This document shows, piece by piece, positions 2,947 to 9,359 of a stretch of DNA of 12,960 nt. Numbering within the stretch: the first letter of the stretch is position 1; every line of letters begins with the position of its first letter. A program made the position numbers and the translations under genes. The notes beneath the pieces were generated by a model. The model ran no database searches, was not told where the DNA came from, and worked only from the letters and a program-made list of their open reading frames with translations. This DNA comes from an uncultured archaeon (GTDB taxonomy: Archaea; Asgardarchaeota; Jordiarchaeia; Jordiarchaeales; Jordiarchaeaceae), in NCBI GenBank assembly GCA_964510585.1, contig CAZECW010000048.1, forward strand, positions 1 through 12,960. The letters are read 5' to 3'.

Positions 2947-3170
2947 CAGTTTCAAAACAGGTGGGCTAAAAAATGGTCAAACACCCAAAAATTATGGGGA
3001 GGGCTCACCAAAGATTTTGTAATAAATAAGAAGGGTTTCTTGTGGGCCTGTTTTCATTTCTTCTAAAGCGTTTGGATTCCTGATGAAAAATGGCTAGAAG
3101 CGGCGATGTGGGGTTTAACCTTTGTTCATCCTTATCCTGAATATGTAGAGTTTTTGTGTGTGAGATTTAG

Positions 3171-3207
3171 AGATATACTTATATATCTTTGATATCATTG
3201 TATATCT
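3171..3207. promoter_or_regulatory. TATA box flanked by repeated GATAT/ATATC half-sites; candidate autoregulatory operator
   Basis: AGATATA-ctta-TATATCT inverted repeat (3171-3188) overlaps TTATATA (3179-3185). A TGATATCA palindrome (3190-3197) and a second TATATCT (3201-3207) follow, directly upstream of an RHH gene. Confidence 0.55.
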
Positions 3208-3217
3208 GGTGCTTGGT

Positions 3218-3610
3218 GTGGATGTCCTAATTAGGGGTATAGACGAGGAAGTTTATGCCAGATTAAAAGCAAGAGCCTCAGAGCGGGGCTTAAAAATAGG
3301 GGAAGCCTTAACAGAAGCCATTAAGACCTGGTTAAAAAATTCTCCTGAGAAAAATGAGCGTGAGAAGGAGAGAGACCTGAATATTGCCACCTTCAGAAGA
3401 ATGAGAAGATTTCTTGAAAAAAACCACAAGGGAAAATGGGTTCTCATAGCTAAAGGCGAAGTAATAAGACTGGCGGATTCCATATTAGAAATAGTTGAAG
3501 CCAAAAAAAGTGAACAACTCACCGACAGACCCAGCCTCATTTTCAAGGTAGGCGAAACCCGCATAAAAAGAACCATAGGATTCAATGCAAGGAGGAAAAC
3601 CACCCAGTGA
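3218..3610 (+). CDS. Ribbon-helix-helix (FitA/Arc-like) domain fused to a DUF5678-like domain; putative antitoxin or regulator
   Basis: N-terminal DVLIRGIDEEVYARLKARASERGLKIGEALTEAI fits the RHH beta-alpha-alpha pattern. C-terminal HKGKWVLIAKGEVI fits the GKWV motif I recall for DUF5678. GTG at 3218 follows GGTG at 3208-3211; GTG at 3209 is the alternative start. Confidence 0.75.
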   Translation: MDVLIRGIDEEVYARLKARASERGLKIGEALTEAIKTWLKNSPEKNEREKERDLNIATFRRMRRFLEKNHKGKWVLIAKGEVIRLADSILEIVEAKKSEQLTDRPSLIFKVGETRIKRTIGFNARRKTTQ

Positions 3611-4047
3611 AAGAAAAAACCTGGAACTACGCAACACCACCAACTTCAAGTGTCCCTGCACCATACATCGAAATAGTAGTACACACCCCTGATAGAAGCT
3701 TAAAATATCCAATTGAGGGCACCCTTAGCGCCATGGTTGACACCGGATTTGACGGCTACCTAATCATACCCATCAACATATTCCAAGAGTTAAGACTTGA
3801 CCAATATGAAGTCCCACCAGACCTAATCGAAGTCACCGAAACATTTTCGGGCGAAACAATCAAGCTGCGTACCTCCCTAGCCATCGTAGAAATACAGGGA
3901 CTACTCGAAAAACAAGTTGAGATAGATACTCACGAAAACTGCCAAGAACCACTCCTCGGACGACTCTTCCTCGAAAACCTAGTAACAACCCTAAACGGAC
4001 CGAAAAGAAAAACAAAAGTTTCCACACAAGGCGAGCTCTCCGGGTAG
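3607..4047 (+). CDS. Clan AA (retropepsin-like) aspartic protease, AF_0612-type
   Basis: PAPYIEI strand, catalytic AMVDTGFDGYLIIP and C-terminal LLGRLFL. Single-domain size (146 aa) implies a homodimer. GTGA start/stop overlap (3607-3610) couples it to the upstream gene. Confidence 0.85.
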   Translation: MKEKTWNYATPPTSSVPAPYIEIVVHTPDRSLKYPIEGTLSAMVDTGFDGYLIIPINIFQELRLDQYEVPPDLIEVTETFSGETIKLRTSLAIVEIQGLLEKQVEIDTHENCQEPLLGRLFLENLVTTLNGPKRKTKVSTQGELSG

Positions 4048-4513
4048 GAATACACGAAAAACAATTCAACCCCCCTTCTTCTTGGAACCAAATCCCCTCA
4101 ACTAGACTAGGAGCAGCTCTTCCCACCATATGAAACCACAAGACCACCGCTAAAGGCATTAGACATTAACTCTTACCCTAAGAAGTTTTGTTGGGTGGAC
4201 TCCTGTTGGAGACAATTTCTTTCGAAACTTTACTGCGTACAAGAAGGAAGAGGACTTCAGGATCACAAGTAGAGAATACTGATAAAGGTGTATAGGGTAA
4301 GAGATAACCCTGATGCTCCCAGTAGACTCTGCTCGCCCCACCTCTTTGCTGAACTTTTCGACGATCCTAAAAAAAGGGAATGGTAAGTCTTCGTGATGAA
4401 AATTAATATTTTAAACTGAGAAGTCTTAATTTCTTAATTTATATTGTTATTATCCTTTGAGTTTTAGGGGTTTAAGGCCAAAAAATGTGGAGTGGAACTT
4501 AGTGTTTGACGAT

Positions 4514-5293
4514 TCATTTTTTCTTGCTCTTTTTTTCCATGTAGCGTTGGAACAAGGTCGCCATGTCTTCGGTTCTCACACATATGTCTTGCGCCAATAT
4601 GGAGTACTCAAGGACGCTTTCCATATCTATTTCCATGGATTTGTTGGCGATTTTTTTGGCCAGGCCCACGGCTATTAAACCGTTGTCCTTAATTTCGTTA
4701 GCCATCTCTAAGGCTGCGTCCATTAGTTTATCGGCGGGCACCACCTTGTTTACAAGACCTATTCTCTCAGCCTCTTTTGCATCTATGATTCTTCCCGTGA
4801 AGATTAGTTCTTTGGCTCTCCCCAGACCCACTATTCTGGGAAGCCTCTGAGCTCCACCGAGATCCGGAACCAGGCCAAAACATACTTCCGGAACGCCCAT
4901 TCTGGCGTTTTCCGCAGCAATTCTTATGTCGCAGCACAAAGCCATCTCTAAGCCCGCACCGATAGCAGCCCCATTGATAGCGGCTATCACAGGCTTCTCC
5001 ATGCTTTCCAGTAGTCCATAGTTTACTTGGCTCTTCTTTAGAATGTCTCGGAACATTCGGGAGGATGCGCCACCAAGTGCCCCCATAGAAGAGAAGTCTA
5101 TGCCCGCCGAAAAGACTGGGCCTGCGCCCGTAAGAATTACCACCTTCACCTCGTTGTCGTCGGAAACAATGCGAGCAGCCTCACCGATATCTCTAAACAT
5201 TTCGGCGTTAATGGCGTTCCTTTTGTCCGGTCTATTCAGAATAATTCTGCCAACGCCATCCTGCTTCTCAATTTTAATAGTTTCCAGATCCAT
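4514..5293 (-). CDS. Enoyl-CoA hydratase/isomerase (crotonase superfamily)
   Basis: IILNRPDKRNAI, FSAGID oxyanion loop, AAINGAAIGAGLEMAL, PEVCFGLVPDLGGAQRLPRIVG and AEAERIGLVNKVVP-type motif. Both catalytic Glu positions are present. ATG at 5293 with GGAGG RBS at 5300-5304 (259 aa); the track's extension to 5443 is probably untranslated. Confidence 0.93.
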   Translation of the reverse strand: MDLETIKIEKQDGVGRIILNRPDKRNAINAEMFRDIGEAARIVSDDNEVKVVILTGAGPVFSAGIDFSSMGALGGASSRMFRDILKKSQVNYGLLESMEKPVIAAINGAAIGAGLEMALCCDIRIAAENARMGVPEVCFGLVPDLGGAQRLPRIVGLGRAKELIFTGRIIDAKEAERIGLVNKVVPADKLMDAALEMANEIKDNGLIAVGLAKKIANKSMEIDMESVLEYSILAQDICVRTEDMATLFQRYMEKKSKKK

Positions 5294-8587: not shown

Positions 8588-8654
8588 GGTTATGATTTAA
8601 TTGAACACGACATAAAATGCGATTGGTGAGAATAAATTAAAACTGGTGTTAAAA

Positions 8655-9359
8655 TTGGCAGGTTACAAACTCTCTGACTTCAAAATGTTGGAGAAAGCTC
8701 CCTACGAGCTACCAGACACAAAACTTCTAACAGATTTAGTGATTGAAGGCTACAAATCTGTGGAAAAAACCTTCGGCCCAGTTTATACCACCAACTTCAT
8801 AAAGCATGCTTTGCGATTTGTGAAAAGGAAGGTGGGAGAAGAGCCAACCCAGGAAATCAAAACTTTAGACCAGTTAAAAGAGTATCTAGTTTCTCTGGCT
8901 GACAAGTACAAATTCCCCTACTGCGCAGCGGTATACGCCCAGTTTAATGTTGAAAACTTTTTTGAGGGCAGAATAGGTGCTGCAAGCATGGAGGTGGGAC
9001 ACACCTTCACTAAAGACGTGGAAAAAGCAGATAGCATCGAAGACCAAAACATCGACATAGATGGAATACTCGAAAAATATAGAAAAGACACAATTCAAAC
9101 CATGATGGCTCACCACGAAATGGGCTACAGGAAAAACGGAGATGGAAGCATACACATTATTTACCCCACCTGCTTCCTCAAAGAAGCATGCAAATTAGCC
9201 TACGAGGAAGGCTTAGCAAAAAGGCGTGACGGCACCATACAATGCGGAATAATGCAGTACAACTGTCAATACCTCAAACTAGTTACTGGCTACAACTGGG
9301 ACTTTAAACTAGTAGAATACTTTGAGCCCCACTGCGTCGCACACTGCTTCATGTTCTAA
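8655..9359 (+). CDS. Hypothetical protein with C-terminal V4R / methanogen-output-domain-like Cys-rich fold
   Basis: C-terminal half has the pattern helix-G-helix, beta hairpin, YPTCFLKEAC, QCG..NC, then LVEYFEPHCVAHC, typical of V4R-like ligand or metal-binding domains. TTG at 8655 after GGTG at 8645-8648; GTG at 8646 is the alternative. The CDS is secure but the fold call is tentative. Confidence 0.7.
   Translation: MAGYKLSDFKMLEKAPYELPDTKLLTDLVIEGYKSVEKTFGPVYTTNFIKHALRFVKRKVGEEPTQEIKTLDQLKEYLVSLADKYKFPYCAAVYAQFNVENFFEGRIGAASMEVGHTFTKDVEKADSIEDQNIDIDGILEKYRKDTIQTMMAHHEMGYRKNGDGSIHIIYPTCFLKEACKLAYEEGLAKRRDGTIQCGIMQYNCQYLKLVTGYNWDFKLVEYFEPHCVAHCFMF

What the first reader, a model, noticed from the sequence alone, without database searches (positions are those of the whole stretch)
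3218..4047. Toxin-antitoxin-like operon whose effector is a retropepsin-like protease (RHH-DUF5678 plus DTG protease)
Seen: two small genes with a GTGA overlap. The first is an RHH DNA-binding domain joined by a charged helix to a GKWV domain; the second is a single-domain aspartic protease with intact DTG and LLGR motifs and no signal peptide or transmembrane segment. The pair is isolated by long intergenic gaps among metabolic genes. Known: RHH-first, coupled two-gene operons are the type II TA layout, but characterised toxins there are mostly nucleases or transferases. Inference: either the protease is a toxin inhibited by the DUF5678 domain, or it is a switch that cleaves its own repressor in a stress or antiviral response. 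I know of no experimental characterisation. This is the best candidate for an undescribed system in the window.
Basis: partly seen in the sequence, partly recalled or inferred. Interest (0 to 1): 0.7.

Follow-up and report, generated by a model that had tools for sequence, protein, structure and literature searches.

The report
Retropepsin-like protease with RHH-DUF5678 partner
An Asgard archaeon from hot springs carries a small, self-contained gene pair built like a toxin-antitoxin module: an HIV-protease-like enzyme and a DNA-binding partner whose tail is predicted to plug the enzyme's active site. I found no study of this pair.

Summary
Gene A (3218-3610) encodes a ribbon-helix-helix (RHH) head, a charged helix, a DUF5678-like domain and a basic tail. 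Gene B (3607-4047) overlaps it by GTGA and encodes a soluble 146-aa retropepsin-like protease with D45-T-G and L116-L-G-R.

The pairing is not chance:
- The same genome has three such pairs.
- In 151 Asgard genomes, 25 of 26 assessable strong partner hits lie directly upstream of a protease hit.
- Natural DUF5678-protease fusions exist.

A co-fold of two protease copies with the partner's C-terminal half scored 0.77, against 0.02 for the best control. It places the tail (RIKRTIGFNARRK) against the catalytic Asp and flaps of both protease copies.

Within the genus the roughly 1.2-kb cassette is present, absent, relocated or decayed. Broken proteases occur with intact partners. The only broken partner sits beside a DTA protease.

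The best reading (about 0.5) is a type-II-TA-like module in which the partner represses the operon and blocks the protease as a substrate mimic. Toxicity, cleavage and targets are untested. Seven full-text searches found no paper on the pair. Earlier runs of this scan noted the same cassette on much other DNA.

The parts
3027..4250 (.). Extent of the presence/absence cassette: promoter, both genes and the 3' non-coding stretch.
   Evidence: A same-genus genome (G064) keeps both flanks but lacks this stretch. The left junction lies right after window 3026. The right end is approximate, 4111-4250.
3171..3207 (+). Operator-like repeats. Two 17-nt direct copies lie at 3172-3188 and 3191-3207. An inverted repeat AGATATA-N4-TATATCT lies at 3171-3188. 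A GATATC palindrome lies at 3191-3196.
   Evidence: Repeats found. They are conserved in orthologous cassettes, including one in a different genomic context (L046). Distant pairs each carry their own repeats at this position. Binding by the RHH head is inferred.
3179..3186 (+). TATA-box-like TTATATAT, about 32 nt upstream of the start codon. A GGTG lies at 3208-3211.
   Evidence: Read directly from the sequence. Promoter function is inferred from general knowledge of archaeal promoters.
3218..3610 (+). Gene A, 130 aa: RHH head, charged helix, DUF5678-like domain, basic tail.
3218..3349 (+). RHH DNA-binding head of gene A.
   Evidence: Sub-threshold matches to FitA-like_RHH, RHH_10, 56B_RHH, ParG and VapB. 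Helices are predicted at residues 13-25 and 30-44.
3417..3423 (+). A7 run in the linker of gene A.
   Evidence: A relative has A6 here, which frameshifts gene A just before the DUF5678 domain.
3416..3550 (+). DUF5678-like core (strand, strand, helix, strand; GKWV motif).
   Evidence: The model built on 65 relatives has mean pLDDT 81.9. The strand DRPSLIFK is predicted to pair with protease residues 65-75.
3551..3607 (+). Basic C-terminal tail. The conserved T-I-G-F lies at 3572-3583.
   Evidence: In the co-fold the tail touches D45, G47-G50, flap residues 75-80 and L116 of both protease copies. The G-[FW] motif is conserved in this subfamily. Three relatives end exactly at G-W.
3590..3595 (+). 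AGGAGG ribosome-binding site for gene B, inside gene A.
   Evidence: Read directly from the sequence.
3607..4047 (+). Gene B, 146 aa: soluble single-domain retropepsin-like aspartic protease.
3739..3747 (+). Catalytic D45-T46-G47.
   Evidence: Invariant in alignment A5.
3832..3861 (+). Predicted flap hairpin, residues 76-85, with the near-invariant G82.
   Evidence: Residues 75-80 of both copies touch the partner's tail.
3952..3963 (+). L116-L-G118-R motif, the second retropepsin signature.
   Evidence: G118 is invariant.

Best explanation
This is a self-contained, self-regulated two-gene module built like a type II toxin-antitoxin pair, with a retropepsin-like aspartic protease as the effector.

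The two genes are translationally coupled. The partner's DUF5678 domain docks on the protease dimer. Its basic C-terminal tail lies in the substrate cleft under the flaps, as a substrate or product mimic, and keeps the enzyme shut. Its RHH head binds the repeats over the TATA box and represses the operon.

If the partner is lost or out-competed, the free protease cuts cellular or viral proteins and harms the cell.

Status of each step:
- Shown: the genes, motifs, conserved pairing, fusions and cassette behaviour.
- Predicted: the binding and the tail sitting in the cleft.
- Inferred: repression, inhibition and toxicity.
For: Conserved pairing:
- Three pairs occur in this genome.
- All 20 loci inspected that carry a DTG-[FYSA]-[DE]-type protease and an upstream DUF5678-like gene, 17 of them measured with gene junctions between -29 and +1 nt.
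- 25 of 26 assessable strong partner hits in 151 Asgard genomes lie directly upstream of a protease hit.
- Weaker partner hits are also followed by D[TS]G proteases.

Fusions: natural DUF5678-protease fusions exist. P0171 passes the Pfam cut-offs for both domains.

Antitoxin-type heads: RHH here, and Phd/YefM in P0027.

Co-fold: score 0.77 in three runs, best of three controls 0.02. That mark was reached by 58 of 80 solved complexes and 2 of 110 mismatched pairs. Partner pLDDT was at least 85, and the runs agree in at least 91% of contacts. The tail touches D45, G47-G50, flap 75-80 and L116 of both protease copies. No solved relative of the partner exists.

Tail specificity: the tail motif changes with the protease subtype.

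Mobility and decay within the genus:
- The cassette sits at the site between the deacetylase-like (HDAC) and enoyl-CoA hydratase (ECH) genes, at a FeoB/EamA site, beside an archaeal ATPase, and in an island of TA genes.
- It is cleanly absent in G064.
- The protease is truncated or frameshifted beside an intact partner in G028 and L080.
- The only broken partner sits with a DTA protease (L007, L008, G056).
- No intact DTG protease was found beside a broken partner.

Regulation: operator-like repeats travel with the cassette.
Against: - No experiment shows toxicity, inhibition or DNA binding.
- The Pfam and NCBIfam hits for the window's own proteins are all below the curated cut-offs.
- The tail-in-cleft pose could be recalled from the many solved retropepsin-peptide complexes.
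- In this lineage the cassette is syntenic in several genomes, lies among metabolic genes, and is under purifying selection (dN/dS 0.07-0.17). That also fits a useful housekeeping function.
- The decay asymmetry rests on about a dozen related cassettes.
- The partner frameshift lies in a homopolymer and could be an assembly error.
- No match was found in phage or plasmid records.
Confidence: 0.5

Rival explanations
1. The pair is a self-cleaving regulatory switch. The partner is the protease's dedicated substrate, not its inhibitor. Cleavage at the tail (for example after the conserved Phe or Trp) or in the linker changes or destroys the RHH repressor, as ImmA does to ImmR or IrrE to DdrO. The protease is not toxic.
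For: - The co-fold puts the tail in the cleft in substrate fashion.
- T-I-G-F followed by N-A-R-R resembles retropepsin sites with an aromatic P1 (my own knowledge of retroviral cleavage sites).
- In fused forms the same basic tail is the linker to the protease N-terminus, like a self-processing site.
- Three relatives end exactly at G-W, as if already trimmed.
Against: - The cassette carries no cargo for such a switch to control.
- The patchy, multi-copy, relocating and decaying pattern fits selfish modules better than regulators.
- Broken proteases beside intact partners are hard to explain if the protease is harmless and the partner's only role is to be cut.
Confidence: 0.2
2. The partner is a detached prosegment or assembly chaperone for a housekeeping or quality-control protease. 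It guides folding or dimerisation and masks the site until needed, as a retroviral precursor or a zymogen propeptide does. The RHH head only balances expression.
For: - Fused and split forms are colinear.
- Both genes are under purifying selection.
- The cassette has been stable at one locus in several genomes and in four metagenome runs spanning 2017-2025.
- The neighbours are metabolic genes.
Against: - Only 32 of 151 Asgard genomes have a hit, and copy number ranges from 0 to 8.
- Within one genus the cassette is lost, relocated or broken.
- The heads are typical antitoxin DNA-binding domains.
Confidence: 0.15
3. The pair is a dedicated antiviral, abortive-infection-type module. A viral cue removes or titrates the partner, and the protease then cuts viral or host proteins.
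For: - The protease has weak matches to PADLOC models: PDLC01052 'protease' (E 7e-6) and PEPT_D of Sulfolobales type III CRISPR loci (E 2e-5).
- The paralogue on contig C184 weakly matches PDC-M08B (E 1.6e-4).
- PDC-M08 is listed as a two-gene defence candidate in the supplement of Payne et al., bioRxiv 10.1101/2024.01.29.577857.
Against: - No defence genes lie in this window.
- The window's own protease does not match PDC-M08B, and no partner matches any PADLOC model.
- I could not link the PDC family numbers to these proteins.
Confidence: 0.1

Closest known systems
Type II toxin-antitoxin modules with RHH antitoxins (FitAB, VapBC)
   Same: - Two small overlapping genes, with the DNA-binding protein encoded first.
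- An RHH head plus a C-terminal region predicted to reach into the effector's active site.
- Repeats at the promoter.
- Patchy, multi-copy, relocating and decaying distribution.
   Different: - The effector is an aspartic protease, not a PIN nuclease or another known toxin.
- The neutralising part is a folded DUF5678 domain plus a substrate-like tail.
- Toxicity is untested.
Prokaryotic retropepsin-like proteases (Rickettsia APRc/ApRick, PDB 5c9b/5c9d/5c9f)
   Same: Single-lobe clan AA fold signatures, D-T-G and hydrophobic-hydrophobic-Gly. This is the best solved sequence relative, E 8e-5.
   Different: - The match is weak.
- The window's enzyme is soluble, with no membrane segment.
- It comes with a dedicated partner gene. 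I know of none described for APRc (my recollection; its genomic context was not examined here).
Retroviral protease within its Gag-Pol precursor
   Same: An upstream polypeptide whose end lies in the protease cleft. The fused DUF5678-protease forms place the basic tail directly before the protease N-terminus.
   Different: - It is not viral.
- The upstream part is a separate gene here and carries a DNA-binding head.
- Self-processing is not shown.
PADLOC phage-defence candidate PDC-M08 (Payne et al., bioRxiv 10.1101/2024.01.29.577857)
   Same: A two-gene candidate whose second-gene model weakly matches the paralogous protease on contig C184.
   Different: - The window's protease and all partners tested do not match it.
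- The candidate is itself untested.
- I could not confirm what its family numbers stand for.
ImmA/ImmR and IrrE/DdrO protease-repressor pairs
   Same: A protease encoded next to the repressor on which it acts.
   Different: - Those proteases are metalloproteases.
- Their repressors control cargo genes.
- Here nothing beyond the pair itself is seen to be controlled.

Membership tests
Retropepsin-like aspartic proteases (clan AA; TIGR03698 / Pfam gag-asp_proteas) | Catalytic Asp-Thr/Ser-Gly triad | tested here: met
   D45-T46-G47 is invariant in 21 relatives.
Retropepsin-like aspartic proteases (clan AA; TIGR03698 / Pfam gag-asp_proteas) | Second signature, hydrophobic-hydrophobic-Gly, near the C-terminus | tested here: met
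   L116-L117-G118-R119 is present, and G118 is invariant.
Retropepsin-like aspartic proteases (clan AA; TIGR03698 / Pfam gag-asp_proteas) | Score at or above the curated family cut-off | tested here: not met
   TIGR03698 scores 50.9 bits against 57.35. gag-asp_proteas scores 18.7 against 28.2. The family profile does reach ApRick (E 8e-5), HIV-2 protease (9e-4) and Ddi1 (4e-3).
Retropepsin-like aspartic proteases (clan AA; TIGR03698 / Pfam gag-asp_proteas) | Single lobe that acts as a homodimer with one shared cleft | tested here: inconclusive
   The 146-aa length fits a single lobe. In the co-fold one tail touches D45 and the flap of both copies, and the protease chains have pLDDT about 90. 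This is a prediction only.
Type II toxin-antitoxin module | Two small co-directional, translationally coupled genes | tested here: met
   The genes share a GTGA overlap. In 17 related pairs the junctions lie between -29 and +1 nt.
Type II toxin-antitoxin module | Antitoxin with a DNA-binding domain and a separate effector-binding region | tested here: met
   The RHH and VapB-type matches are sub-threshold. The C-terminal half is predicted to bind the protease. P0027 carries a Phd/YefM head instead.
Type II toxin-antitoxin module | Direct binding of the two proteins | tested here: inconclusive
   The co-fold scored 0.77, best control 0.02. That mark was reached by 58 of 80 solved complexes and 2 of 110 mismatched pairs. 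This supports binding but does not show it.
Type II toxin-antitoxin module | The effector is toxic and the partner neutralises it | not testable with these tools
   Indirect evidence only. Broken proteases occur with intact partners. The one broken partner sits with a DTA protease. No intact DTG protease was found beside a broken partner.
Type II toxin-antitoxin module | Autoregulation at an operator in the promoter | tested here: inconclusive
   Repeats lie over and after the TATA box. They are conserved with the cassette, and distant pairs carry their own repeats. No binding data exist.
Type II toxin-antitoxin module | Patchy, multi-copy, mobile distribution | tested here: met
   32 of 151 Asgard genomes have a hit, with 0 to 8 copies each. 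At least four genomic contexts and one clean indel occur within a genus.
DUF5678 (PF18929) | Score at or above the Pfam gathering cut-off | tested here: not met
   The window's protein scores 20.3 bits against 23.2. It is linked by profile to proteins that do pass: the C184 paralogue at 35.9 bits, P0089 at 43.5 and P0027 at 62.2.
PADLOC candidate PDC-M08 | Match to the A and B gene models | tested here: not met
   The window's proteins have no match. Only the C184 protease paralogue matches PDC-M08B, weakly, at E 1.6e-4.

The most novel reading that the evidence does not exclude
This would be a new class of toxin-antitoxin or abortive-infection module. Its toxin is a cytoplasmic retropepsin-like aspartic protease. 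Its antitoxin silences it by laying a substrate- or product-like tail into the active site. That would be a cellular counterpart of the way retroviral proteases are held within their precursors. The module is present in Asgard archaea, and at least 1,508 protein clusters carry the partner domain.
Probability: 0.4. Interest if true: 0.8.

Novelty: new variant of a known kind. Interest (0 to 1): 0.62.

Why it matters
If the protease proves to be a toxin held shut by its partner's tail, aspartic proteases would join the known toxin-antitoxin effectors. I know of none among characterised TA toxins. It would also give DUF5678 a function and give retropepsin-like enzymes of prokaryotes a cellular role. 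The pair would provide a compact natural protease-inhibitor system from thermophiles. It also bears on where the retroviral and Ddi1-type protease fold was used before eukaryotes. The hypothesis can be tested directly with a two-gene construct and an Asp-to-Asn control.

Tried and rejected
- AlphaFold model of the whole partner from 12 close orthologues: mean pLDDT 51.7, too poor for a fold search.
- Fold searches with the good DUF5678 model (pLDDT 81.9): no clear match. Foldseek's best E was 0.87, and the best VIA-align Z was 3.6. This does not show that the fold is new.
- Partner profiles against solved structures: nothing for the C-terminal half. For the head, only weak RHH hits: 2kel at E 0.11 and 3h87 at E 0.47.
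- The search for related loci in genome contigs failed three times because no stretch of the alignments was conserved enough. I therefore give no named distribution outside Asgard archaea from my own tests.
- Cluster look-up gave few names: Freyarchaeota and Baldrarchaeia only.
- tblastn of the protease against phage and plasmid records: no match.
- No RNA holder was listed among the sequencing runs.
- Seven full-text searches (DUF5678; retropepsin with antitoxin or toxin-antitoxin; aspartic/aspartyl protease with RHH, antitoxin or 'protease toxin'; retropepsin with gene neighbourhood) found no paper on the pair. The one retropepsin-plus-antitoxin hit lists a small retropepsin near Sulfolobales type III CRISPR loci, with no partner mentioned.
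- The main text of Payne et al. does not mention this protease. Its supplement lists PDC-M08 and PDC-M52 only by family numbers, which I could not resolve.
- Contig breaks at 3029-3032, 3170-3172 and 3187-3229 in the laid runs were not interpreted. One loose end is adapter sequence.
- The sigma-70 promoter scan was not used, because the organism is an archaeon.

Full report
WHAT IS THERE

The window is contig C48 of a 3.78-Mb genome that is 96% complete. Source names on close homologues place it in Candidatus Freyarchaeota, an Asgard archaeon. The same DNA is held in hot-spring metagenome runs.

Gene A runs from GTG 3218 to TGA 3610. Gene B runs from GTG 3607 to TAG 4047. They share the four bases GTGA. 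The start at 3218 is the one conserved in 11 orthologues. The upstream GTG at 3209 falls out of frame in a relative. An AGGAGG at 3590-3595 precedes gene B.

The flanks are a deacetylase-like (HDAC) gene, 271 nt upstream, and an enoyl-CoA hydratase (ECH) gene on the other strand, 466 nt downstream. The rest of the window encodes metabolic enzymes. The window holds no tRNA genes and no Rfam matches.

THE TWO PROTEINS

Gene A gives sub-threshold but concordant matches:
- FitA-like RHH, residues 6-27: E 9e-6, 26.0 bits against a cut-off of 27.
- Three further RHH families over the same region.
- A VapB antitoxin model, E 1.5e-4.
- DUF5678, residues 70-114: E 5e-4, 20.3 bits against 23.2.

A profile of its C-terminal half finds 1,508 clusters among 1.84 billion representative proteins. 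Several of those tested pass the DUF5678 cut-off. A model built on 65 relatives has mean pLDDT 81.9. It shows a helix, two strands, a helix and a strand, followed by a disordered basic tail. Neither Foldseek nor VIA-align finds a clear solved counterpart.

Gene B scores 50.9 bits on TIGR03698, whose cut-off is 57.35. D45-T46-G47 and G118 (within L-L-G-R) are invariant in 21 relatives, and a flap-like glycine, G82, is nearly so. The family profile reaches Rickettsia ApRick (E 8e-5), HIV-2 protease and Ddi1. Neither protein has a membrane-like segment. Both genes are under purifying selection, dN/dS 0.07-0.17.

THE PAIRING IS CONSERVED

This genome holds three protease hits, and each has a DUF5678-like gene directly upstream.

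In a sample of 151 Asgard genomes, 32 have a TIGR03698-like hit, with up to 8 copies each. I extracted the loci and found two classes:
- Proteases with D-T-G followed by F, Y, S or A and then D or E are preceded by a partner in all 20 loci inspected that carry one. Gene junctions lie between -29 and +1 nt in the 17 pairs measured.
- A second class, D-T-G-[AS] proteases of about 125 aa, has no such partner.

Searching from the partner side, 25 of 26 assessable hits with E at or below 1e-10 lie directly upstream of a protease hit (one search compared). Several weaker hits are also followed by D-[TS]-G proteases that the protease model had missed.

Natural fusions exist. P0171 (206 aa) passes the Pfam cut-offs for both DUF5678 and aspartic-protease families. 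P0094, P0089 and P0076 are similar. All are colinear with the split pair on contig C184. P0027 has a Phd/YefM antitoxin head in front of two DUF5678 domains.

PREDICTED COMPLEX

I co-folded two protease copies with residues 56-133 of the partner, numbered from 3209.
- The score was 0.77 in all three runs, and the best of three controls scored 0.02.
- That mark was reached by 58 of 80 solved complexes and by 2 of 110 mismatched pairs.
- Partner pLDDT was at least 85, and the runs agree in at least 91% of contacts.
- The counts hold only roughly here, because I used my own alignments and three chains.

In the model, the strand DRPSLIFK pairs with protease residues 65-75 of one copy. The tail RIKRTIGFNARRK touches D45, G47-G50, I53, flap residues 75-80 and L116 of both copies. 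That is the canonical substrate groove.

No relative of the partner has been solved, so the docking is not recalled from a known complex. The peptide-in-cleft pose may be, because many retropepsin-peptide structures exist.

The tail motif varies with the protease subtype:
- [IL]-G-[FW] with DTG[FY] proteases.
- L-P-A-P with DTGADD proteases.
- R-[VI]-Y-R with DTGSDG proteases.

Three relatives end exactly at G-W. This suggests that the aromatic residue sits at P1, and that the tail may act as a product-like plug. That is an inference.

REGULATION (INFERRED)

Directly upstream of gene A lie a TATA-like TTATATAT (3179-3186), two 17-nt direct repeats (3172-3188 and 3191-3207), an inverted repeat and a GATATC palindrome. 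The block is conserved in orthologous cassettes, including one in an unrelated genomic context. Distant pairs each carry their own short repeats at the same position. This fits repression by the RHH head. No binding data exist.

BEHAVIOUR IN GENOMES

Orthologues 68-87% identical occur only in Freyarchaeota records. Their state differs from genome to genome:
- L007, L008 and G056: the pair sits at the same HDAC...ECH locus. Gene A is frameshifted at an A-run (A6 in place of the window's A7 at 3417-3423), and the protease reads D-T-A.
- G064: both flanks are kept, but window 3027 to about 4250 is cleanly missing.
- G028: HDAC lies 65 bp from ECH. The pair is on another contig beside an archaeal ATPase. 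Its partner is intact. Its protease is truncated after about residue 83 by recombination with a copy of a neighbouring gene's 3' end.
- G038 (a complete genome): only a remnant of the protease's C-terminal half remains, next to an AbiEii-like nucleotidyltransferase. An intact pair occupies that FeoB/EamA context in L081.
- L080: the pair lies among MNT-HepT, PIN and UPF0175 genes. Its partner is intact and its protease is frameshifted near residue 10.

Orphan partners also occur elsewhere in the phylum.

I saw three broken proteases beside intact partners (a fourth, P0013, has no known partner). I saw one broken partner, beside a D-T-A protease. I saw no intact D-T-G protease beside a broken partner. 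This asymmetry is what one expects if the protease is the harmful component. The sample is about a dozen related cassettes, and the frameshift lies in a homopolymer.

In contigs of four runs (2017-2025) the cassette has no indel inside either gene. One variant has 36 differing bases, and its indels all lie outside the coding regions.

INTERPRETATION

The best reading (0.5) is a type-II-TA-like module. The partner represses the operon and blocks the protease with a substrate-mimicking tail, and the free protease is harmful.

The rivals are:
- A non-toxic self-cleaving switch (0.2).
- A detached prosegment for a housekeeping protease (0.15).
- A dedicated antiviral module (0.1).

The co-fold cannot tell an inhibitor from a substrate. 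The fused forms and the tails that end at G-W point both ways.

KNOWN OR NEW

Seven full-text searches found no paper on the pair. One paper lists a small retropepsin near Sulfolobales type III CRISPR loci (PMC3973734).

PADLOC models match the protease only weakly. The partner matches no PADLOC model. PDC-M08B matches only the C184 paralogue. I could not resolve the candidate's family numbers in the supplement of Payne et al..

Earlier runs of this scan noted the same cassette on much other DNA: 474 notes in at least 436 genomes. These notes are unchecked AI notes. I tested their main claims here myself: the pairing, the fusions and the tail in the cleft.

I class the finding as a new variant of a known kind, with interest 0.62.

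Noticed in passing
L003:1435-2270 (G000 contig C75, minus strand): The third pair in this genome has a DTGFDG protease frame with no ATG, GTG or TTG between the upstream stop and the DTG motif. The frame overlaps the end of the 134-aa partner gene by about 80 nt in the -1 frame. Possible explanations are an unusual start codon, frameshifting or a decaying copy.
   Followed up: partly
window 3417-3423: The A7 run in gene A's linker (GAA AAA AAC, a slippery-looking heptamer) is A6 in L007, L008 and G056. That splits gene A into an RHH-only product and an intact out-of-frame DUF5678 part. It could be a real frameshift, phase variation or an assembly error. The window's A7 shows no indel in contigs of four runs.
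   Followed up: partly
window 4047-4514 versus L007:6441-10914: Relatives carry about 4.4 kb more between the protease and ECH: genes of 227, 58 and 177 aa with no Pfam match, plus an Old-Yellow-Enzyme-type oxidoreductase. The window lacks this stretch. The locus is therefore variable on both sides of the cassette.
   Followed up: partly
L046:398-949 and L046:5150-5407 (G028 contig C396): The 3' part of a 183-aa gene is duplicated 4 kb away and fused in frame to the truncated protease. This marks a recombination that destroyed the protease.
   Followed up: partly
L013, L018, L019, L021, L026, L027, L028 (Asgard genomes G021, G048, G078, G066, G007, G084, G089): A second class of stand-alone D-T-G-[AS] proteases of about 125 aa reaches 8 copies per genome (G021, G099) and has no DUF5678-type partner. 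Its role is unknown.
   Followed up: no
L069:611-1728 (G007 contig C39): An orphan DUF5678-like gene of 74 aa, with a tail ending ...H-M-G-F-R..., follows a PIN gene and a 112-aa putative DNA-binding gene. No protease lies downstream.
   Followed up: no
window 8646-9359 (+): A 237-aa ORF between the HpaB-like gene and the alcohol dehydrogenase gene has no Pfam match.
   Followed up: no
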